Assembly (NCBI RefSeq): GCF_026210795.1
Contig: NC_089429.1
Span: forward strand, 372,001 to 436,000
Length of the DNA: 64,000 bases
Reading direction: 5' to 3'
Source: Rhizophagus irregularis
Lineage: Eukaryota
A program made the position numbers and the translations under genes. Under the pieces are notes generated by a model. That model saw only the letters and a list, made by a program, of their open reading frames with translations, was not told where the DNA came from and made no database searches. Shown here piece after piece: positions 26,682-61,697 of this stretch. Numbering within the stretch: position 1 is the first letter of the stretch; every line of letters starts with the position of its first letter.

Positions 26682-29600
26682 TTATGAATGTTTAATAATT
26701 TCAAGTGAATTTAGTGAATTTGAAAATTGTAGATTATTGGATGATGAATCTAAAAATAATAAAAAAAAATAAATATTAAAAATTATAAAAAAATTGTAAA
26801 AATTTAATAAAATTACCTTTAACATCATTATTTATATCATATAATAATAAATCTAAAAATAATAATATAAAAAAAAATTTAAAAAATTATATAAATTATA
26901 TAACTTAATAATAAATATATTAAATTACCTTCAGTATTTATATTAGATAACTGTAACAATTTATTATAAATAATTTCAATAGTAGGTCTTTCTTCAGGAT
27001 TTTCATTCCAACAGGCAGTATAAAGATTATAATAATCAGATGGTGTATCAGGTATTTTTTCCTCTCTTTTTTTATTGCAAATAATATGTATTGGCAATAA
27101 TATTTCATCAGTATTTTCAAATGGAGGATAACCACTTGATAATTCCCAAAGTAAAACTCCAAGACTATAAATATCAGTTTTCCATGAAAATGGTGGAAGT
27201 TGAGAGCCTTTATGTTTAAGTAATTCTGGTGCTACATATGGAATCATTCCAAAAATTTCTGTATGTATTTTAGTTTGAGTTTCCATACTTTTAGCATATC
27301 CAAAATCTGTTATTTTTGCTTTTCCTTTATGTATAACTATATTTTTTGCATGCTAAAAAAAACAATTTGATTATTAATTAATATATAATATATTTATTAA
27401 AAATATAAAATACTAATAAAAAAAAAACTTACAAGATCTCTATGTATGATTTTTTCTTTATGTAAATAATGCACCCCATTTGTAATATCAAAAGCAAATT
27501 GATATTTTTTATTCCAATTAAGAAATGAAAAATTTTTTTTGAGATAAACTCGCAAGTTACCACTATCAGCATATTCCATAACTATACAATAATTATTTTG
27601 TGATTGTAATTCTATTTTAATTAAAATAAATAAATGTTACTATGATTTTAAATTTAAAATAATAGTTTATATTTTACATACCTTGAGTAATTCCTATAAA
27701 ACGAATAATATTTTCACAAGCATGCACTCTATTTTGCATTTGTATTTCATGTTGAAATGCATCTTCTTGAATATCATTTGAATTATTTAATTTTTTAATA
27801 ACAATAAAATCATTTATTTTTGACCAACGTGCTTTAGATACAGAACCAAAATGACCAGAACCAACTTTTGATAAATCAGTTAATTCATTCCATTCTATAT
27901 ATTTAATTGCTTTTTCTTTAATTGCAGATTTTATCCATAATAAATCTTTTCTTATAGAAATATAATTATTAAAGATATCTTGTAAACCTATTAATAATTT
28001 TGCAAATGTAGGTCGATAATCTGGATTTTGTTTAACAGCTTTTTTTACAAGAATTTGATATTCCTTAGGAATATTAGTATCAGGTGTAAATTTTTCTCGA
28101 TATCCTTTAATTACTTTTTTTATAATATCAGGATTTTCAAATTCTGCATATGGAACTTTACATTCAGCAATCTCCCAAAGAAGAATACCATAACTATAAA
28201 TTTCACATTTAGTATTATATTCTTTTTCCTTATTCACTTCCAGCATTTCAGGAGAACTATATTGAATATATTTTTTATCTTTGAATAAATTATTAGCTAA
28301 TTGAAAATTTGTAAGTTTTGCAACATCATGATTTGTTATTACAATATTTTCAGAACTAATATTTTGATGAAGAATCTATAAAAGAAAAAAAAAATTAAAA
28401 TGAATTTTAATTAAATAAAATTTCTAGAATTTATTACCTTAACAGAATTAAGAAAATTTAACCCTTTGGCAATATCATAAGCAAATTTTAATCTAAATTT
28501 TATTTCAATATTTTGTCCATATAAAGAAATATATTTACGTAAATTTCCATTTTCTGCCCATTCAGTTATTAAATAAAATTTAGAACCATCATAAGTAAGA
28601 CCATAAAATTGAATGATATTTTGACAATATTCAAGTTTTTTAAGGATTGTAACTTGATTTTCAACTTGAACAATAATATGATTTTCTTTAACAGTTTTAA
28701 AAGCAACTTCATCACCATTTATTCTATTAATGTATTTTCTTAATTTATCACTTCGAGGTTTATCATCAGACATTATATAATTATAGTATGGAAGTGGAAA
28801 TTCATTAAATCTTATTCCTTTTTTATTGTCAATCAGACTATGCATATTAATTACCATTTTGATAATTTTATTCATTTCATCATTTGTATCTGTGATATTT
28901 TGATTCATATTATATTCAAATAACTCAATTATACTTTCTGTTAAAGCTTCTTGGAATTCATCATTCAAATTTTTACTTTCTAAATTAACCTTAGGATTAA
29001 TCATTAATAGACTAATACAAGTATCATATTCATTACATAATTCTATAATTTTTGATTTAACAGATTCAATTAATAGATTATTTTGTGTTAATTCTTCGGC
29101 AATAAAATTTTTCATGTCTTGAAGAACTTGAACTAATCTTTGTAAATTAACATGATTTTTTGAAGTATATAAATTATCATCAGTATCTTGTAAAATATAA
29201 ATATTAACTGTATTAGTTGCTTTGGTAATACGATCGATTAAAATTTTTGTTATTTTTTTATGTTGAACTTTATGATATAAATCCATACTTCTATTAAATA
29301 TGCTGGCTACATCTTTAATAAGAGGAAAAAATAGTTCAAAATAAATAGTATTATTTATTTCAGATATTTGTTTCATATTCATACCGGTTATACTTTCTGC
29401 TAAAATTGTTTGAAATTTTATAAGTTCCTTAATATCTTCTTTCAAAATCTTATCTTCATCTTGTTCCTTAAATTTCTTACAATTATCAAAGTTTAATAAA
29501 TCAATACAAGTATTATTATATTCTTCACGTAAATCTTTAAATTTATATTCGATTATTTTATCTTTCAAAAAATCTTGTACTGTATTATATTGTGTTATTT

Positions 29601-30693
29601 CTTCAATATATTTTTTCATTTCTTTAAAAACTTGAAATAATCTTTGTAAATGTGAAGTATCTAAATCTTTATTTGCTTGTATAACTGCAAAATATGCTTC
29701 GAACATTCGTTTAATCAAATTAAAAGTTATATTCTTATTATGTTGAGCAATTTTATACAATTCCTTAACTTCATTAAAAATTTTAGCTATTCTACTTTTT
29801 ACTAAATCCGTTAACAAAATTTTATCATCTTCTTGTTCATTAATCTTAAAATCAAAGTTTATGTTAAAATTTAATAAACTAATTTTAACAATATCATTAT
29901 ATTCATTACGTAATTCTTTAAATTTTTTTTCAAATGTTTCAGTTTCTAAAAGTTCCTGCATCGTATCATATTGCGTTATTTCTTCAATATATTTCTTCAT
30001 ATTTTGAGGAACTTGAAGAATTAATCTACGTAAATTATTATGACTATCTTCATAATGTGATGTGAATAATTCATCTTTTTGTTGTATAATTTTAATTAAA
30101 GGAATTACTTTGGAAATACGTTTCGTTAAAATTCCTGCTATTTTTTTATTATGTTGAGCTTTTTTACACAATTCCTTAACTTCATCAAGAATTTTAACTA
30201 TCGTATTTATCATTGAAGCTGTTTGAAATTTTAAAAATTCTTCAATATCTTCTTTCAAAATTTTATCTTCTTCCTGTGCATTAAATTTTTTAAAATCAAA
30301 AAAATCCAATAAACTAATACTATTATCATATTCTTTATTTAAACTTTTAAATCTTTTTTTAATTGTTTTGACTTTTAAAGATTCATTATATTGTGTTTCT
30401 TTGACAAATTTTATCATGTTTTGAAGAACTTGAACTAATCTTCGTAAACTAGTATAATAATGGTTTGAAATAATTAATTCTTTTCTTTTTTGTAAAATAT
30501 TAACTGCTGAATTTGCCATGGAAATACGTTCCATAAAATTTTTTATTATATTTTTATAATGTTGAGTCGTATGATATATATCCGTAACTTTGATATGTAT
30601 CTCAGTTACATCTTTAATAAGTGGTCCGAATTTTACGAAAGGTTCTGTGTTGTTAGTTTTGTCTTTAATTTTTTTTTTTTGATACTTATTCAT
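26682..30693 (-). CDS. Four MLKL-like helical-bundle repeats, pseudokinase and TKL-type kinase (exons 30693-28438, 28375-27682, 27611-27433, 27352-26929, 26852-26817, 26749-26682)
   Basis: Four ~140 aa repeats with (A)QHNK..I...RI and LxRLxQV..MKKxI motifs. Kinase 1 has HQN and NFQ in place of HRD and DFG. Kinase 2 has GSGHFG, HRDLHAKN, DFG and APE. GT-AG introns join in frame. Confidence 0.85.
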
Positions 30694-33473
30694 TATTCAT
30701 ATACTGTAATATCCAGTGTCGATTAGTGTCGATGATTGATAATTTGTCGTTCACAAATCACAATAATCTCTCTAATGAACTTTTTCTCTAACTAAAATTA
30801 TATTTATTATCTGCAACTCGGCGATAATTTGCATTAATCAATGGCTTATAGACAAGAAAGGTTAAATTTTTCGTCAGACGTGTTACAAAAAAAAATTCCT
30901 GATTATAGGCGCCCAATTTTAATAAAAGGCCTCCTAAAAATATATTCAAAAAAAAAAGAAAAAAAAACTCGTTTCCATACAATTCCGCAGTATTAGAACT
31001 GATATTTCTCCAGCAAGCCTGTTACAATATAGAAATATGAGCGTAAACCGTTACTTTCGAAAGACACTCCTATAGAGCTTGCCTCTGGGTTGAAGTGAAG
31101 GTTGAAAATAATTTTCAGTGGCTCTGCTCTCTTTGGTTCAATCTCGGGAGGTTTTTTCTTCGGTTTTCCTCCGTTACTGTGGCTCCCAATTATCCAGTGC
31201 CAATAACCATATGGTCATAAAATATTTTTATTTTTATTTTTTTTTTTACCGCCCATATGGCTTTCCTTATTCATGCACGTCAGTACTTGGTCAGCAGGCC
31301 AGAGCTTGCCGATCATCATCATACCCTACCCTTTTTTTGCATTACCTACACACCTTCTTTACGTATTGTATACCCCAACTATTGGCATAGGATGTACGTC
31401 AAAATTTCAATGATGATCATCCCATGGATTCTTCATGTGAATTCAGCCGATCATGACGGTTGACTTATTTTATCTATTATTAATTTTTCATCAGCTTGAA
31501 AATTTAATGGTTGGCCGAAATAGGAAAAAAATACGGTGAAAAAATTAATATTTTTTGTTTCTTAGAGTAGGTAATCTAATTTTCTACATATTAGATCTTA
31601 GATTTTGCCTCCGCCCTTCTCTCCATAGGAAGGCGTGTCATAAATAAAAAAACATTTTTTTACCCATAAAATCCAATTTTTTTTTTGTTTGTTAATGCGA
31701 ATCAAAAATAAAAAGTTTATTATCTAATTGAATAAAAAATTGGATTATCGTTTCCATCTTAGTTTTAATTATTTACTTTGTAACAGTATGGTGCTCCATT
31801 TCGATTATTTAAACTAGTAAAATTGCAAAAAAATTTGGAGCTTAATGAAATTTTTACTTTCATACGATCAAACGATCAACGGGTTTTACTTGTAAATTAT
31901 ATGGGTCTGAAACATTTTAAAAGAAAGAATTTACAAAAATTTTTTTGTAAAATTTGTCATATTTTTTTTTATCAAAAGTGAATGATTTGTTTTTTCTTGG
32001 TAAAAGTTTCATATATCTCTATAAGGAAGTAGGGTGTCTGATTAACATTAAGGAACCTCGGGTGTCTGGTGTGATAACCTAAAAATCTTAATTCCGGCCG
32101 GAATTAACTTAATTTCAGCCAAAATTAACATTTATTTTATAACTAATGATCATGATGATTATTATTATTATTCAAAGTAAAGAAAATTAAGCACCTGAAT
32201 CACTGAATGTTCTTCTTTAAGTGTGATTCTCCTATCTGATAAAATACTTTTGTAACTAAAAAAACTACATTTAACATTTACAACAGATACTGGAAATCAA
32301 ATATATACTAAAGTAAGCTAATGCATTAAGTTCAGATAATAAATGCAATTTATTATGCCAATATATGTCTAAATCTATTAATTCTTCAGCTACTTTGTTA
32401 AGTTTACAATAAATTGCCTATTTTTGTATTAGAAAAATAAAATTTTTCAATAATTCTATAATTTGCCATATTGTAGTTATTAGTTAGTATTTGAAATCAA
32501 ATATATTTAAATATATTCAAGTATTCATTTAAATTTATAAAGTGTATTTGAATAATATTTGAATAAGTTTAAATTTATTTTTATAGTAAATTAGTAATAT
32601 TTTACATACATTTAATCTGAATTATAATTTATAATTTTAATTCCATTAAATTTAAGAAATTTAATATCAAATTAGAATATTAACTACAATATATCTAGCT
32701 AAATAAATACTTAAATTAACTTATTAACTACTAAGCTTATTTAAACTTTGCTAACAACTAAAATTTTACGTAATGTATTGTACAATACTTGTATAAGTAT
32801 TGTACAATATATTTAAATTCTATAATGAATTGTACAATAGTTTTGGATTATAAATTGTCAAGTATATATTAATACACAAGCACTTGTAATTTATATAGTC
32901 ACAATTATATTTAAATAAATCATCTTACGATTTTAAACAATTTTTTTTTACTTATACATTACACAATATATATTACAATGGATTGTTATACATATAACTA
33001 TATAACTACTATGTTGTTATTTTTCATTGACAGCTAATAGTAAGTATTTTAATCTGATTAATCACGCACTTTAAGATAATGAATTACTTCTTCTTAATTT
33101 GGCTCATTAAGGAGGTTCCTAACATAATGTTAGTGTTTCATCCACTTATCCGCTGGAAGTCAGACTAAAATATTTCTTACTAATAACTTTTCACACACTC
33201 TTTCTTACTTTTCACACCTATAGTATAAAATTTTTTAATATAATGTTTGATTCATAATTAAATACAAATTTTTATGCACAACATGCAGTAAATACCTGTG
33301 ATTTTTCAAGTATTAAATTATATTACATCGTGAATTACATCATGAAGTACATAGAAAACTGAATACGAGTTACTTCAACTGAATGTTTTCTGCCAAATCC
33401 TCCATGTCCATGTCCATAAATATATCCACATTCATGTTCATGTTCATGTCCACGTCCATTTCTATAGCTTGTA

Positions 33474-33996: not shown

Positions 33997-34505
33997 TAGA
34001 AGCTTCCAGTGCATTAAAATTTATTTCATTGGTGAAATTAGTTTGATTATAGTGAGGAAGTATGAGATCATGTGTGATATAATCAAGTGTCTTGACCTCA
34101 TTTAAGTGAGCGTTTGTAAGAAGTGGTTCATCTACGCATTTTAAAATGTTGGTCATACAGTTCTTTTATACGTATAATATTCTGAATTTTTATTATGTGA
34201 TGCAGGGATCGCAGTAGAAATGATATTGTTAAATGAAGTCTTGCGCAGAACGCAGGTTGAAAATTAATGCTATCGGGTACATATTAGATGCACGATATGC
34301 GTACAATATATGTGATATATATGTATGATATTTAACAATACTACACATATCGGGTACCCGATAAGTGTAGTAAAAATGTAGAAAATTGGTAACATATATT
34401 GCAAACATCATATATACATCTTACATATATCGGGTAGTTAAATATTGGTCACATATTATAGACTTATTGGGTACCCAATATATTATGATATATATCATAT
34501 ATATA

Positions 34506-35457
34506 CTAAGAAACGGAAACCGTTGTAAGTCCGGAGCGAAAGATTTTGTACAAAAATCCAAATATCTTTAAAAATTCAATTTGTACAAAAAATCTGGTGT
34601 CCCTAAAAAAAATAAAAAAATGAAACGTTAGAAACGTTTCTTTAAAGTTAAACAAATAAATTAAAACCCCTCTTCACAATTTACCTTTAAAAGTCAGCAT
34701 ATACAAAAAACCCGCATTCCAGATAAAAAAATAAAAATGAAATGTTAAAAACGTTTCTTTAAAGCAAAACAAATAAAAAACAACTTACCAGTCAAGAAAT
34801 CCAGAAACCCTAGGATAAAAGTAAGAAATGAAACGTTAGAAACGTTTCTTTAAAGTCAAATAAATAAGAAAAGCCAATTTACCTTTAAAAATCTGGCGTG
34901 TACAAAAATCCTGTGTCCCTAGAAATAATAATAAGTGAAACGTTAAAAACGTTTCTTTAAAGCAAAACAAATAAAAAAACAACTTACCAGTCCAGTATAT
35001 ACAAGAAATCCAGAAACCCTAGGAAAAAAGTAAGAAATGAAACGTTAAACGTTAAACGTTTCTTTAAAGTTAAACAAATAAAAAACCCTTCACTTCTTAA
35101 TTTACCTTTAAAGTCCAGTATGTGCGAAATCTAGAAACCCTAGAAAAAGAATAAGAAATAAATCAAAAACATTCCTTTGAAGTCAATTAAAAAAAAATAT
35201 ACTCTCTAGACGAAACCAAACAAAAAAAGAGATTATCAGGTAATCATGTTTATCATAAACTTATTATGATTATTACACTTGTTTATTTTTGAAGTAGCAT
35301 AAAATTTCAATGACACAATCTGTACAGACCAATCAGAAATGACGCGTGCGGACATCGCCACGTGATCCAATATGTCATTAAGGTTCATAAACATATATAG
35401 TCCTTCGCTTCGCTCTGGACAATTATACAGATATCATACAGATATCAGACAGATAGA
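34506..35457 (-). mobile_element. Non-autonomous Helitron/Helentron-like element
   Basis: Minus-strand 5' A|TCTATCTGTCTG; 3' hairpin AACGG-TTT-CCGTT then CTTAG|T. Subterminal inverted repeats GTCCGGAGCGAA (34529) and TTCGCTCTGGAC (35409). No TSD. Confidence 0.65.
34560..35165 (-). other. Array of 6 repeated micro-exon/intron units, non-coding
   Basis: Each unit has (C/T)TAAC, a pyrimidine tract, TAG, a 21-36 nt exon and GTAA(G/A)T. Example exons: 35139-35106, 35018-34988, 34918-34883, 34809-34789. Confidence 0.7.
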
Positions 35458-37346
35458 TATATGTATGTCAAAATTGTGTAACTGGGCATATTGGATACCT
35501 GATATGTGTACAATAAATGTGATATATGTGTATGATATTTAACAATACTACACATATCAGGTATCTGATATATGTAGTAGAAATATAGAAAATCGGTGAC
35601 ATATATTATAAACATCATATAATATCTTATACATATCGGGTAGTCAATTGTCAGGTACCCAGTATATTATAGTAAAATATCAGATAGATATTATACACTT
35701 GTACAATATTTATTTTATGCAATAATATAAATACTAATAAATCCATAATTTAAATTCAATTATAATATTAATTTATTTAATAGTACTAAAAGTTTTATTA
35801 TTTTTAATTAATAATAAAAAATTACAAAAAAATAAAATTACAAAAAAGTATATAAAAATTATTCAAGCCATATAAACAATTAGAATTATGTATATCTGTT
35901 ATCTACAAATAATGTGTTCGGTTATTTGCTGCTTATTTTTATCTTTTTAATATTTAAAAGAAAGAAATAGAAATAGTAAAGTATATTAGTAATAATAAAG
36001 ATATTAGTATAAATATTGTTAAACGAATTTGTAAGATAAAAGGAATGATATTAGAAATGTTAATAAAAGAAAAGAAACATAAAAAATGGTTAGTAATAGA
36101 AAATGTTAGTATATTTAGTAGTAAAATATATTAGTAAAAACAAACATTAGTAGGTTAAAAAAAAAGAAAAGAAGTATTAAAAATATTAATAATTTAAATA
36201 AAAATTAATAAAAAATATACCTTTATATTTATTTCACCTTTTTTTGAAGTTTGCTATTAAATAGCAAACTTATTAATTCATTTTTTTAATAAAATAAAAA
36301 AATAAATATTTAAATTACCTTGATATGCGTTATTTCCATATTCTTCTAAAAATACATGATTAGATTTTCTTTTTCTTGAAATTACTATATATAAACCAAA
36401 TTAAACTTTGATTAAATTTTTCTAAAAGAATGTTTAGATTACCTTGACATCTTTTAATTTAGATTTTTTTTTTCTTGAATTCGCAGATATAGAATTACCA
36501 TCTTTACGTATAGTATCAAAAAATGTCCGCTCTTGATGTGAAAGATACTTAGGAACCACCTCGTCTTCTGATTAATGAGACCCTAAGTCAGAGGAGGCTA
36601 GCCTATCAGGTACAAGTACCCTACAACTTCATCCCTAAGTAGTCAAAAATCTTGGGTGGTTTCAGACCACAGCGTACTACATGATTAGTCTTTGGACATG
36701 TTGGGATTTGATAAGTGAAAGAAAAAATAACTCCAGCGCCAGCGTTTTGTAAAGAATAATAAAATAATATTTTTAAGTTAGTTCTTTCTTTAAATTTTTG
36801 AAAAAATTTGTTTCTTAAAATCATAATATTGTAAAAAAATGCTGGTTGCTACAACTGACGGACAACGACAAATTGTCAGGCTACCTCCGGACAAAGTAAT
36901 TGGAAGGCAGAAAATGTCATAAAATATCCAGCCCTATTTCATAACATTTTCCTCCAGGATAAAGCAAATATTACAAAAGAAATTGTAAATATATTTAACA
37001 AGCAATAGATACATGGCCGTTGAAAAATATATTTACATTTCATATTGTAATACTACAGTCTAACAAAGAAAGACAAGAAATTGCAAATATATTTAACAAG
37101 CAATAGATACATGGCCGTTGAAAAATATATTCACACTTATACCACAAAGAAAGACTTAAACTACAACATATTGTAAAGAAAAATATGAAAAATACGTGTA
37201 TATCCTATTTTCATATCTTGCTTAATAGCTCTACTATTATTTAAAAGCAGCTTTTCTCTTTTTTGTATGTGGGTAGATGTGTACATTTTTCTTTTCTTTT
37301 ATTCTCTTCTTTCGTATGTGAGTGGTAGGTACATTTCGTGAATAGA

Positions 37347-57304: not shown

Positions 57305-58910
57305 TGTTATCCTGTCAACGATTAAAGTCAACTGAAAAACTTTAACGCTTTAACAAGTTAACTGGAGTTTAACTTAATAGGAGAGTCTTAAGTTGATCAC
57401 AAATAATCACGTGAAATAACGTTGGATGTTCAGTTAAAGAAAATAGGTTTTTATTAAAATAATGTAAGGTTTTAAATATGACGAAAAATATAGATAATCT
57501 CTTGGTTGCGAAATTAACTATCTTGAATTATACTACTGGGAATAATACTCTTTTCGTATAACTCGAATACTACAATACAATTCTTAACTAACTGACTGAC
57601 CTCCCCTTCTACTTGGTAAAATCCTATCCCTATTTATAATAAAATAAAAATCAAGAATATTTGATAAAGTAAATAAAACAAATATAATAAATAAATAAAT
57701 AAAATAAAATAAATAAATAAGATAAAATAAATATATCAAATATAGGGCTTCAATCAGTTTCGGTAATTACCGAACTGATCTGATCAGTTTCAGTATCAGA
57801 ACGGTTTTAGTATTCTGATTTACCAAACCGAACCTTTCAGTAAATTTACCAATTAGTTTCGGTAACTTCGGTTTTGGTATCAGTTTTACAATTTACTGAA
57901 CCAATTTACTGAACTGATATTTTCGGTATCAGTTTCAGTAAATTTTACCGATCACTTCAGTAAATTTTACTGATCATTTCGGTAAATTTACCGAACTGAT
58001 TTGCTGAACATTTTGTGACGTTGATAAAAAACGTCGCGAAATGTTTTTTTTTGACAATTTAATAAAAATATTGCAAAATGTTTTTATTTGTTAATTTATT
58101 TAAAAAAAAATGTTTCGCAACATTTTTTTTTGATAATTTAATAAAAACGTTGCGAAATGTTTTTATTTGTTAATTTATTTTAAAAAAAACGTTTCGCAAC
58201 ATTTTTTTTCATAACTTAATAGAAAACGTTGCGAAATGTTTTTTATTAGTTAATTAATTTAAAAAAAAACGTTTTGCAACATTTTTTTTGATAATTTAAT
58301 AAAAACGTTGCGAAATGTTTTTATTTGTTAATTTATTTTAAAAAAAACGGTTCACAACATTTTTTTGATAATTTAATAAAAACGTTGCGAAATGTTTTTA
58401 TTTGTTAATTTATTTAAAAAAAAACGTTTCGCAGTTTTTTTTCATAACTTAATAGAAAACGTTGCGAAACATTTTTTATTAGTTAATTTAATTAAAAAAT
58501 GTTTCGCAACATTTTTTTTTCAATAATTTAATAAAAATGTTGCGAAACGTTTTTATTAGTTAATTTAATTAAAAAAAACATTTTCGCACGTTTTTTAATA
58601 AAAAACGTTGCGAAAACGTTAAAAACTGAACTGATAATGAATCGGTAAATCGGTTCAGTTTTCGGTATTTACCGGTCAGTTTTGGTTTTGGCAAAAACTG
58701 TACTGAACTGAACCGATCGGAGCTCTAATCAAATATAACAAATAAAATTAATAAAATTAATAAAATAAATAAATCAAAATATCAAATATATCAAATTTAT
58801 CAGATTTATCAGATTTATCAAATAAATTAAGAAAATCAAGAAAATTGAAAAAATCAAGGGATCTACAAAATGATCTACAAAATTGATCTACATAAAATTA
58901 CTGCGCTACA
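57305..58910. repeat. Dispersed repeat, solo-LTR-like (TG...CA), copy 2, containing a hAT MITE
   Basis: Starts TGTTATCC and ends GCGCTACA; homologous to 24450-25438. No TSD recognised. Confidence 0.65.
57743..58727. mobile_element. Non-autonomous hAT-type element, 8 bp TSD ATCAAATA, with internal ~78 bp tandem repeats
   Basis: TAGGGCTTCAATC versus reverse complement TAGAGCTCCGATC; TSD at 57735-57742 and 58728-58735. Each repeat has GTTGCGAAA/TTTCGCAAC inverted halves. Confidence 0.88.
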
Positions 58911-59229
58911 TTTCTATTTTAACAATATATTATATCATTATATATTCATAAAAAAAAAGTAAAAAAAAAATAAATAATTATTTCTACACTATTTTCTATT
59001 TTTTTTCAGTTTGCAGATCTTTTTTTAAGCTTTTTTAACTTCTTTTTATTTATTTTAACAAAGCTTATCTATTAATTGGTTATATTTTATTTTTTCAGCA
59101 AAAATTTTCCCTTTTCTTTTTTTCCATTTCTCCTATTTCTATTTCTCTATTTCCTTATTATTTTCTATTTTCCTTCTACTTGTACTTAATTTAAAAAAAG
59201 GTTGAAAAGCACATCATGCAAGATAATGA

Positions 59230-61170
59230 AATGTTTCTATTTTTTGATTTTTTTTTTACAGTTCCTGGATGCGACATTTTGGTAAGTTTGTTAAGATTTA
59301 TTTTTTTTGTTTTATTTTAATGAACGATTTTTAATGGCTTGTTTCTTAATTTTTTTAGATGGTTTGGTTCTATGAATACTTAAACATATAGGAATATGGT
59401 AGAAAGATTTTTTCATAATTATTTATTTTACAATACAAAATGCCAGGCCTTTGAACACATGAAATTTTAGTAGAAGGACTTAAAATTTTTTTTAGTTGAG
59501 ATCTTTAGAACGCATAGTAGTAAAATTAGAAAATATTCTTTTTTAACATTTTGATTTTACTTTTTTTTTAGACACGTAGTATTTAGTAGGAGATTATAAG
59601 AATTATTTATTTTAAATTTATTTCTTTAAATGAGACATTTCTAACATTTCAATTTTTTCATTTTTGTAGATGATTAATTCTTTAAGATACTTGGATGCAT
59701 GAAAAATTCTGTGAAGAGATTTTTATTTTTATTTTTTTAACAAAACGATCATTTATTTTGTTTTGCAGATGATTGGTTCCTTGAAATACTTGGATATGTG
59801 GAAAAGTCAGTAAGGGAATTAATATAAATAACTCTTTCAAACGAAATAATTTTAACGTTTTACTTTTTCCTTCTTTTTGTAAATGACCAGTCTTCTGGTA
59901 TCTGAACGTGTGAGAATTCGGTAAGGAGAACTAGTTAATATCGGCCATATTTCACATGTATCATGTAATTAAAATTAATAAATATGATGAACAACTTTTT
60001 TTTTTAACTTTTACCACTGTACCTTTAATTTCAAATTGTTTATCATTTTATCATATTTCGTTTCCTTTTCTTTTATCCTTTCCTTTGTCCTTTCTTTTCC
60101 TCTTCCTGTCCTTTTTTCCTGTACTTTCCATTTAAATATTCTTTATATTTAAGTAGTTCTCTCAATCTTCCCTGACATTACATTTCAGTAAGTTCATATT
60201 TTTTTTTCTTCAATTGTTTTTATTGAATAGTTTCTTAGTTCTTTTTTTCTTTTTTTTTTTTAGACAACTAGGTATGCAGTCTTTGGTCTTTAGGCTAATT
60301 TATAGGATTTTGGTAGGAATTTTATTTTTCTTTTAAATTATTCTTTTAACAAACCATTTACTAACATTTCAATTTTTACTTTTTTTAGATGGATTTCTTT
60401 AAGACTTGATATTTTCCTACAAGCTTTTTCTTTCTTAACAAAAGTTTAGCAATTAAACATGTGTTTAAAAATTTAGAGTATATTAAAAATATTGATAACA
60501 AGATATTATTTTACGGTTTTGTATATATTTTTATTGAAGTTATAAAAAAAAATGATATTCAATTTTTTTTAGTACTGAATTATTTTTATTAAAACATAAT
60601 ACTGACATTTCGATTTCCTTTTTTTAGATGGCTTAATTCTTGGACGTGTGGGAATTTGGTAGAAAATGATTATTTTTTAATTATTTTTTTAACAAAACGT
60701 TTGCTAACATTTTGTTTTTTCTCTTTTTTAGATGGCTTCTTCTTTGGATATCGTTAGAGATGCAGATTACAGTGTGTTTAATTTTAATGAAATGCTAACC
60801 TATTAATGAAATAGATCTTTAGTTCTTTGAATGTAATGTTTAGATGCAGAATTTTGGTAAGATATATTTTTTTTACTAAGTTACACAAATACTAACTTTT
60901 TTTTTCTTTTTTTTAGACAATTGGCTCCTTTAGATGCGAATTTTGTAAGTTATTTAACTTTTTTCTTTAAATTTTTTCTTTTAGCGAATAGTCACTAACA
61001 TTCATCATCTTTCCTTTTCAGTTGGTTGGCTTGAACGCATGGAAAATTTGGTGAGACTCTGTTCTAATTATGCATTTCAATGAAATATTTTATAACATTT
61101 CAATTTTTTCTTTTTTTTAGATGATCCAGGTCTCTAGATGTTTGGGGATTTGGGATTTGGGGATTTGGGT
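59230..61170 (+). other. Array of about 15 related micro-exon/intron units, non-coding
   Basis: Recurrent CT(A/G)AC, T-tract, YAG, a 20-41 nt exon and GT(A/G). Example exons: 59262-59281, 59359-59398, 59670-59710, 59769-59809, 60628-60658, 60917-60944, 61022-61050. Confidence 0.75.
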
Positions 61171-61697
61171 TAAAATCATAGGCTTTCTCACCAGCTGGCA
61201 AGGTGTATGAAATTTCTTTAATTTATAAAGAAAGCCTTGCTAAAGTTATCTTTAGAATAGGTCTAGTAATATATTGCCTTAATTGAGCGTGGCTACGAGA
61301 GTTTATAATTCTTAAATTGCCTTATTCCTATTCATTACACACATATATATCTTATAATTAATTATACAATTTATTTTTAGAGAAAATTTATTTTTCACCC
61401 AGGTGATTTCTCACCCAGTCACATGATAATATTATATTAATATAATTATTATAAATAATTTAATTGGTTAAAACGCGCTCCTTACTATCTATAAATAAAT
61501 AAAAATTTTACCTTAGAGAACGCGGGTTCAATTCCTGCGCCAGGCTTTAATTTTTTTTTTATTTATAGCATCATGCTACATGTATCGCAGGTCATTGGTG
61601 CAGCAGATATAACACGTATAACGCATTTTCTTTGTATTCACACGGTTAGTAAAGTCATATTCACGTCGTGTTTTTTTTACTTTTATGCTCTCTAATC

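What the first reader, a model, noticed from the sequence alone, without database searches (positions are those of the whole stretch)
34506..35457. Helitron-like element whose cargo is a repeated splice cassette
About 600 of 952 bp are alternating A/B units, each a branch point, pyrimidine tract, AG, 21-36 nt exon and GT. They run in the element's 5'-to-3' direction with no ORF. Splice signals are mostly retained while exon lengths vary. Inference: the element makes a heavily spliced non-coding RNA, perhaps to look like a host gene and escape silencing, or to feed small-RNA production.
Basis: partly seen in the sequence, partly recalled or inferred. Interest (0 to 1): 0.7.

Follow-up and report, generated by a model that had tools for sequence, protein, structure and literature searches.

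The report
Jumping element carrying spliced intron repeats
In what is likely a root-symbiotic (mycorrhizal) fungus, a small non-coding jumping element carries tandem repeats of a short intron plus a tiny exon, and RNA from sister copies has those introns spliced out and runs on past the element's end; the repeats are likely passengers, and a role in dodging silencing is untested.

Summary
The splice array is real, and it is used. On the minus strand lie five near-identical introns (69-87 nt) that alternate in A/B type and separate 21-36-nt exons, with no ORF. RNA-seq from two studies shows removal of introns I2-I5 (e.g. 289 reads at the I5 joint, 163 skipping I3+I4 around the 21-nt exon). None of the 15 DNA joints shown (of 47) is such an intron loss. 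The spliced reads come from sister copies, not this one, and run through the 3' end into other flanks.

The element is 917 bp (34506-35422), not 952. It starts with TT, not TC, and has subterminal inverted repeats, two hairpins and a 3' CTAG (TTAG here) at an A|T site. These are Helitron2/proto-Helentron-like ends with a HINE-like central repeat.

This copy has lost 2 of 12 splice dinucleotides, and no excess conservation of GT/AG was shown. Introns are more alike than exons (47/68 versus 8/28 invariant columns). The best reading is captured non-coding exons amplified in tandem and carried as passengers. The anti-silencing and small-RNA ideas are untested. I found no description of a spliced central repeat in ten literature searches.

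The parts
34506..35422 (-). Non-autonomous rolling-circle element, 917 bp, inserted between A and T without target duplication
   Evidence: Loose ends at 34504/34505 and 35423-35427; DNA joint 34504->35422 with 1 shared letter in one contig; end sequences
35400..35422 (-). 5' end: TT, 5' subterminal inverted repeat (35408-35420) and a weak GTCC...GGAC hairpin
   Evidence: fold -2.3 kcal/mol, 25 of 200 shuffles as good, so not beyond chance alone
35329..35371 (-). Promoter-like motifs (CACGTG at 35364, ATTGG at 35371 and 35333); function inferred only
   Evidence: Motif scan; the same two motifs sit before the 3' end of L001
35207..35220 (-). Upstream exon E0 (5' limit uncertain); a further donor-like site lies at 35276
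   Evidence: Joint 35017->35206 in 22 reads and 35037->35277 in 13 reads, both 'between: not known'
35140..35206 (-). Intron I0 (67 nt); donor reads GA in this copy, GT in most sister copies
   Evidence: 35205 T>A in 37 of 37 covering RNA reads and in contigs of X15, X16, X19 but not X17
35106..35139 (-). Micro-exon E1, 34 nt (A type)
35019..35105 (-). Intron I1, 87 nt, GT..AG; its exact removal is not among the 15 joints shown (of 28), but its acceptor is used
34988..35018 (-). Micro-exon E2, 31 nt (B type)
34919..34987 (-). Intron I2, 69 nt, spliced
   Evidence: Joint 34917->34988 with one letter between: 16, 21, 19 and 53 reads in X21-X24
34883..34918 (-). Micro-exon E3, 36 nt (A type)
34810..34882 (-). 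Intron I3, 73 nt, spliced
   Evidence: Joint 34808->34882, ends CT..AC: 4, 8, 14 and 7 reads; also inside the double joint 34722->34882
34789..34809 (-). Micro-exon E4, 21 nt (B type), kept in spliced reads
   Evidence: Its letters stand between the sides of joint 34722->34882 in 21, 29, 29 and 84 reads
34720..34788 (-). Intron I4; acceptor AG lacks one base in this copy and is spliced in sister copies
   Evidence: One base put in behind 34720 in 15, 16 and 11 reads of X21-X23; double joint 34722->34882
34685..34719 (-). Micro-exon E5, 35 nt here (A type)
34603..34684 (-). Intron I5, 82 nt, spliced
   Evidence: Joint 34597->34695 with 15 letters between, which place the cut within 1 nt of the GT..AG ends: 54, 68, 47 and 120 reads
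34506..34602 (-). Last exon E6, including one exon-like repeat without intron and the whole 3' terminus; RNA continues past it
   Evidence: D14; depth table; loose end at 34494
34506..34542 (-). 3' end: subterminal inverted repeat (34529-34542), hairpin (34512-34524), CTAG motif (TTAG in this copy)
   Evidence: 34509 A>G in RNA and in 56, 48, 47 and 22 DNA contigs; same end in L001
35423..35457 (.).
   Evidence: the flank-to-flank alignment scored 75 for a cut at 35423 and 67 at 35458

Best explanation
This is a 917-bp non-coding element with rolling-circle (Helitron2-like) ends whose middle is a tandem array of short introns and micro-exons; RNA from sister copies has the introns spliced out and runs on through the element's 3' end, and the array is likely a captured piece of a non-coding, intron-rich transcript that was amplified by tandem duplication and travels as a passenger. 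Shown: the ends, the multi-copy family, unit-number variation in DNA, GT-AG splicing of I2-I5 with the 21-nt exon kept, read-through into a flank, no long ORF, and two dead splice sites in this copy. Inferred: mobilisation in trans by a RepHel transposase; capture of one intron+exon unit (from a host non-coding gene or UTR, or from the parent element's own leader); expansion by slippage or unequal exchange, first single units and then AB pairs; splicing happens simply because each duplicated unit keeps a complete short intron. Not known: whether transcription starts inside the element or is read in from outside.
For: Splicing in three polyA runs (at most 2 samples) and one run of a second study. 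In X24, depth rises with exon share (rho 0.89); bins without exon have depth 1.4-3.1. DNA joints are unit gains and losses with new exon variants, and none of the 15 shown of 47 is an exact intron loss. Many family members share only the ends (joints 34541->35391, loose ends at 34541 and 35391), so the array is not needed for spread. L001 has the same 3' end behind a different tandem of intron + 79-104-nt exon units, so cargo is exchangeable. A second, older non-coding intron/micro-exon array with no clear element ends lies at about 59000-61200, so such units exist in this genome as a source. This copy has lost 2 of 12 splice dinucleotides and has TTAG for CTAG. Central tandem repeats are usual in HINEs (PMC4067079, PMC7492417; passages), and spliced read-through Helitron transcripts are known in maize (PMC4528327; abstract).
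Against: Introns are better kept than exons across units: 47 of 68 versus 8 of 28 invariant ungapped columns, mean identity 0.88 versus 0.72 (E4 left out and the exon-like start of E6 used; columns are not independent; reversed-sequence baselines 0.73 and 0.63). In DNA, depth falls with exon share in 4 of 4 runs (rho -0.90, -0.95, -0.93, -0.68). Pure drift does not predict this, so some constraint on, or separate spread of, the intron is possible. Splicing in X24 is nearly complete. Five of 5 acceptors visible in variant DNA units are intact, though one of those units has lost its donor (table 5c, 12 of 38 rows seen). No source gene and no autonomous partner were found.
Confidence: 0.58

Rival explanations
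1. The 5' part of the element is a promoter and the array is a spliced 5' leader, so each insertion starts a new transcript into the flank (HelibatN3-like), or the cassette is the leader of the parent element's transposase gene.
For: CACGTG and ATTGG motifs within 100 nt of the 5' end. Joints reach 35206 and 35277, so exons extend towards the 5' end. One flank dominates the read-through in both studies: 88, 82, 69 and 119 reads, agreement 0.95-1.0. HelibatN3 does this in bats (PMC4778049; passages).
Against: Depth at 35240-35333 is only 0-6 per strand, and 0-1 in X24, where the spliced chain is most abundant. No strong start peak was seen, and the libraries give equal depth on both strands, so a start site cannot be read. 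This copy's own flanks have no reads.
Confidence: 0.17
2. The array is kept by selection as a splicing tag: exons are mere spacers, and efficient splicing makes the element's RNA look like host mRNA and escape silencing, or else routes it into small-RNA production.
For: Introns are more conserved than exons across units and more widely shared in DNA. Splicing is efficient in X24. In Cryptococcus, poorly spliced transposon introns trigger RNAi (PMC6232588; passages), so good splicing could matter. Helitrons in Rhizophagus irregularis do yield small RNA (PMC8647823; passage).
Against: Two of 12 splice dinucleotides are dead in this copy. There is no deficit of variants at splice dinucleotides (1 seen, 1.07 expected). 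Sister elements without the array share the ends and are abundant. Eight of 30 listed transitions are at CpG-type sites against a 14.5% background (p = 0.06), a weak hint of past methylation. One flank dominates the expressed reads, whereas a tag should help many copies.
Confidence: 0.13
3. The intron is itself a spreading unit (introner-like) that lands between unrelated short exons, and the element merely picked up a cluster of them.
For: Intron bins have several-fold more DNA depth than exon-rich bins. In X17 an unrelated ~24-nt exon with its own donor follows the I5-type acceptor, and in X19 six contigs leave that acceptor into mixed sequence (loose ends at 34602 and 34605). A profile of the 59-61 kb units hits the 3' halves of the element's introns (best E 4e-4) but only one other place in the window (E 1.2).
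Against: The exons E1-E6 are homologous to each other, which is what tandem duplication of a whole unit gives. The introns have no terminal repeats or target duplication that I could see. The intron profile finds nothing at E < 0.05 outside the element.
Confidence: 0.06
4. The spliced chain encodes a short peptide or the tail of a host protein.
For: E3 and E4 are multiples of three, as is E5 in the read variant; one frame of the window's E1-E6 chain has a single stop in 71 codons.
Against: E1, E2 and the window's E5 shift the frame. The three frames hold 3, 1 and 4 stops, and the longest ATG-started run is 46 codons. Exons vary more than introns. Variant exons in DNA are 35 or 36 nt (read by eye).
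Confidence: 0.04
5. The joined forms are DNA (retrocopies or deletions), not splicing.
For: X24 is labelled 'GENOMIC RNA-Seq' and may be DNA; 32 of 47 DNA joints were not displayed.
Against: The same joints occur in three polyA RNA runs together with unspliced reads. They fall at GT..AG ends of four introns. None of the 15 best-supported DNA joints matches, and DNA depth is highest inside the introns.
Confidence: 0.02

Closest known systems
HINE / DINE-1 non-autonomous Helentrons with central tandem repeats (PMC4067079 and PMC7492417; passages)
   Same: Non-coding; subterminal inverted repeats; short inverted repeat with the 5' arm; 3' stem-loop; central tandem array of variable unit number; exchangeable arrays between shared ends
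   Different: Inserts at A|T and ends in CTAG rather than at TT with T-rich ends; the central repeat is a working intron+exon unit (the word stem 'splic' occurs 0 times in PMC7492417's main text)
proto-Helentron of Phytophthora (PMC4067079, PMC11417382; passages)
   Same: 5' TT, 3' CTAG, A|T target, no duplication
   Different: HELIANO places its left inverted repeat about 3.6 kb inside the 5' end and reports it only from Phytophthora; here the repeat is at the very end, the host is a fungus, and no RepHel was seen to place it in the tree
FoHeli1/FoHeli2 Helitron2-type elements of Fusarium oxysporum (PMC5148889; passages)
   Same: Fungal; asymmetric terminal inverted repeat; hairpins at both ends; the quoted FoHeli2 5' hairpin has the same GTCC..GAAGGAC core
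   Different: FoHeli start with TC and end in ATTTT; no splice array reported in the passages read
HelibatN3 of bats and gene-capturing maize Helitrons (PMC4778049 passages; PMC4528327 abstract and outline)
   Same: Non-autonomous rolling-circle element whose captured splice signals are used and give chimeric or read-through transcripts
   Different: Those carry one donor or pieces of coding genes; here one non-coding intron+micro-exon unit is repeated in tandem and both donors and acceptors lie inside; promoter activity is not shown
Introners, including Helitron-derived ones (PMC12130899; passages)
   Same: Families of near-identical spliceosomal introns linked to a mobile element
   Different: There the element is the intron; here several introns lie inside one element with homologous exons between them

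Membership tests
Canonical Helitron (HLE1) | 5' TC | tested here: not met
   The end is TT at 35422; the TC at 35457 lies in flank
Canonical Helitron (HLE1) | 3' hairpin and CTRR | tested here: met
   Hairpin 34512-34524 (weak alone: 22 of 200 shuffles as good); the family reads CTAG, this copy TTAG
Canonical Helitron (HLE1) | A|T target, no duplication | tested here: met
   Flanks A and T; one joining contig, 'between: not known'; T after CTAG in L001
Canonical Helitron (HLE1) | No terminal inverted repeats | tested here: not met
   35408-35420 pairs with 34529-34542
Helitron2 / Helentron / HINE (HLE2) | Asymmetric (sub)terminal inverted repeats | tested here: met
   5' arm 2 nt from the end, 3' arm 23 nt from the end
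Helitron2 / Helentron / HINE (HLE2) | Hairpins at the 5' and 3' ends | tested here: met
   Both predicted, each weak on its own
Helitron2 / Helentron / HINE (HLE2) | T|T target and T-rich ends | tested here: not met
   A|T and CTAG
Helitron2 / Helentron / HINE (HLE2) | Autonomous partner with HLE2-clade RepHel | not testable with these tools
   No genome is held for the window; no RepHel-like ORF noticed among the 23 window ORFs of 120 aa or more (read by eye)
proto-Helentron | 5' TT, 3' CTAG, A|T target | tested here: met
   against PMC4067079
proto-Helentron | RepHel of Helentron type without endonuclease | not testable with these tools
   The element has no ORF and no partner was available
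HelibatN3-like promoter-exon donor | Spliced chimeric RNA leaving the element | tested here: met
   Spliced reads, and reads running on at 34494 and 34505; that single molecules do both is inferred from continuous depth
HelibatN3-like promoter-exon donor | Transcription starts inside the element | tested here: inconclusive
   Unstranded reads, low depth at 35240-35333, no clear start peak
Introner | Near-identical introns at unrelated sites of host genes | tested here: inconclusive
   Loose ends show unrelated exons beside the intron, but exons within the element are homologous

The most novel reading that the evidence does not exclude
A rolling-circle element in mycorrhizal fungi carries a selected 'splicing tag': a stack of standard host-type introns separated by throw-away micro-exons, which gets its RNA processed as host mRNA, lowers silencing, and seeds new multi-exon non-coding transcripts wherever it lands.
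Probability: 0.13. Interest if true: 0.78.

Novelty: new variant of a known kind. Interest (0 to 1): 0.48.

Why it matters
Central tandem repeats of HINE-type elements have been described as satellite-like filler. Here the repeat unit is a working intron plus micro-exon, so one small element spreads ready-made multi-exon structure around a genome. In arbuscular mycorrhizal fungi, where much repeat DNA is unclassified (24% of the R. irregularis genome in PMC8647823, passage), this could be a source of spurious or newborn multi-exon gene models. It also gives a natural test set, array-bearing versus array-less copies with the same ends, for the open question of whether splicing shields mobile DNA from RNAi and methylation. 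The end structure (TT start, terminal inverted repeat, CTAG end, A|T target) extends a combination that HELIANO's authors reported only from Phytophthora.

Tried and rejected
No genome is held for the window, so no genome-wide copy set could be built. Exact-pattern scans gave 1 metagenome locus (L001), 0 in viral contigs, 0 for the intron core in prokaryote genomes, and 2 prokaryote hits for a 19-nt end pattern that lack the rest of the end and are taken as chance. L001's record could not be searched for a 5' end. The run search listed no RNA holder on record; this is no evidence either way. Rfam has no match inside the element; 5 weak miRNA-family hits lie in the AT-rich flanks, far below gathering scores. 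Tandem Repeats Finder does not report the array as a whole. A hairpin+CTAG at 61266 as a 3' end for the second array was rejected, since 12 of 53 CTAGT sites in the window have a similar hairpin. The test of GT/AG excess conservation was inconclusive because only 40 of 199 variant rows were shown. CpG decay is only suggestive (p = 0.06). No protein search was made with the spliced exon chain, so the short-peptide reading is untested by homology. No RNA was laid on the 59-61 kb array, so its splicing is untested. Earlier-findings look-ups by sequence, by a long word list and by place returned nothing.

Full report
Setting. The window is AT-rich, with kinase, LRR and transposase-like ORFs (read by eye). 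The only two kinase relatives with a species name, among 22 hits, are Rhizophagus proteins at 49-54% identity. The host is therefore likely an arbuscular mycorrhizal fungus; this is an inference. No genome was available.

The array. On the minus strand five introns, I1-I5 (87, 69, 73, 69 and 82 nt), separate exons of 34, 31, 36, 21 and 35 nt, and a sixth related intron I0 lies upstream. Donors alternate GTAAAT and GTAAGT, and AB pairs recur at about 200-220 nt. A complete donor-branch-acceptor pattern occurs 4 times on the minus strand and never on the plus strand; 2000 resamples gave a maximum of 1. No frame is open for more than 61 codons unspliced or 63 in the exon chain.

The element. RNA reads and DNA contigs stop matching at 34504-34505 and at 35423-35427. 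One DNA contig joins 34504 to 35422 with one shared letter (40 nt on the short side, letters between not known). The element is thus 34506-35422. It begins TT after an A, carries a 13-14-nt inverted repeat 2 nt from the 5' end and 23 nt from the 3' end, has a weak hairpin at each end, and ends TTAG before a T. The family letter gives CTAG in 602 of 604 covering RNA reads and in 56, 48, 47 and 22 contigs of four DNA runs. By the definitions in PMC11417382, PMC4067079 and PMC5148889 (passages) the ends are mixed. The inverted repeats and double hairpin are as in Helitron2/HINE. The TT start, CTAG end and A|T target are as in proto-Helentron. The element fails the TC test of canonical Helitrons and the TT-target test of HLE2, so I file it only as Helitron-like.

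Splicing is real. Raw reads of three polyA runs (X21 and X23 are one sample) and of one run from a second study were laid on 34300-35700. The joints were: I5, 54/68/47/120 reads; I2, 16/21/19/53; I3+I4 with the 21-nt exon between, 21/29/29/84; I3 alone, 4/8/14/7; E0 to E2, 9/9/4/0; E2 to an E5 variant to E6, 17/5/2/12. Fifteen of 28 joints were shown, and exact removal of I1 is not among them. In four DNA runs none of the 15 joints shown (of 47) is an exact intron loss; those in the array are gains, losses and variants of whole units. Both strands have equal depth, so the direction rests on GT-AG alone.

Limits of that evidence. The reads are mostly 90-99% alike (229 of 2204 are 99+%), and this copy's flanks have depth 0-1, so they come from sister copies. 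No indexed run held more than 0.45 of this copy's words. Reads run on past the 3' end, and one flank dominates in both studies (88, 82, 69 and 119 reads). The RNA is therefore a longer read-through transcript, not a self-contained element RNA. Where it starts is open: joints reach 35277, and promoter-like motifs lie at 35329-35371, but depth between 35240 and 35333 is low.

Selection or passenger? Three results speak against selection on splice sites. Two of 12 splice dinucleotides in I0-I5 are dead here. One of 27 listed variants in 34603-35206 hits a splice dinucleotide, against 1.07 expected (40 of 199 rows visible). One variant DNA unit has lost its donor. Sister elements that share only the ends are common, and L001 has the same 3' end behind a different tandem of introns and 79-104-nt exons with stops in most frames. 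Two results speak for some constraint. Introns are more alike than exons (47/68 versus 8/28 invariant columns; identity 0.88 versus 0.72, with reversed-sequence baselines 0.73 and 0.63). DNA depth falls with exon share in all four runs (depth is not a copy number). This inversion is the most interesting unexplained point. It fits non-coding exons, and it could reflect selection for splicing, homogenisation, or separate spread of the intron.

A possible source. At about 59000-61200 (+) lies a longer, more diverged array of the same build, with 15 acceptor-like sites by one scan; two of three exons tested have stops in all frames. It has no element ends that beat chance. Its profile matches the 3' halves of the element's introns weakly (E 4e-4 to 0.7) and not the exons. 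Non-coding intron/micro-exon stacks thus seem to be a wider feature of this genome. Their splicing was not tested.

Mechanism. The most likely reading (0.58) is a non-autonomous rolling-circle element that took up one intron+exon unit of a non-coding transcript and amplified it in tandem, as HINEs do with central repeats (PMC7492417; passages). The units are spliced when a copy is transcribed, which gives chimeric non-coding RNA, as maize Helitrons do (PMC4528327; abstract). The rivals are a promoter-plus-leader cassette (0.17; compare PMC4778049, passages), a selected splicing tag (0.13; precedent in PMC6232588, passages), an introner-like intron (0.06; PMC12130899, passages), peptide coding (0.04) and DNA-level joined forms (0.02).

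Novelty. Ten searches (titles and abstract starts seen) showed no report of a spliced intron/micro-exon central repeat in a Helitron-like element or in mycorrhizal fungi. In the main texts checked by term, PMC8647823 has no 'intron' or 'spliced', PMC10234402 has no 'helitron', and PMC11952901 mentions Helitron once. Supplements, repeat libraries and subscription journals were not seen and may hold this family. Verdict: a real, RNA-supported new variant of a known kind, with the proposed purpose unproven; interest 0.48.

Noticed in passing
window 59000-61200 (+): A second, older array of about 15 intron/micro-exon-like units; many exons start with ATG, and two of three tested have stops in all frames. 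No element ends beyond chance; weak likeness to the element's introns.
   Followed up: partly
L001 1-800 (-): Same 3' terminus (with CTAG|T) preceded by four tandem intron + 79-104-nt exon units unrelated to the window's array; no matching 5' end seen in the 1.5 kb held.
   Followed up: partly
window 21270-21296 (-): A sister 5' end (A|TTGTCC... hairpin, 7 of 200 shuffles as good) with no matching 3' inverted repeat found in the window.
   Followed up: partly
window 34505 flank, run X24: 45 reads leave the 3' end into sequence that looks like the 5' end of another element of the same kind, suggesting head-to-tail neighbours.
   Followed up: no
window 34602-34605 loose ends, runs X17 and X19: The I5-type acceptor is followed by unrelated sequence in other loci, in X17 by a ~24-nt exon with its own donor.
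   Followed up: no
window 34280-34505 and 35423-35740: The element sits inside a host repeat with two units about 290 nt apart once the 917 bp are removed, rich in short palindromes; multi-copy in DNA runs.
   Followed up: partly
window 34545-34602 (-): Two exon-like repeats follow each other without an intron, as if one intron had been lost precisely or an exon duplicated alone.
   Followed up: no
window 57745-58727: An element with terminal inverted repeats and an internal 79-nt tandem array (about 7 copies) inserted in a repeat that also occurs at 24450-25520.
   Followed up: no
window 26879-30696 (-): Large kinase gene with an internally repeated N-terminal helical region, typical of expanded mycorrhizal kinase families (family label recalled; relatives).
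   Followed up: no
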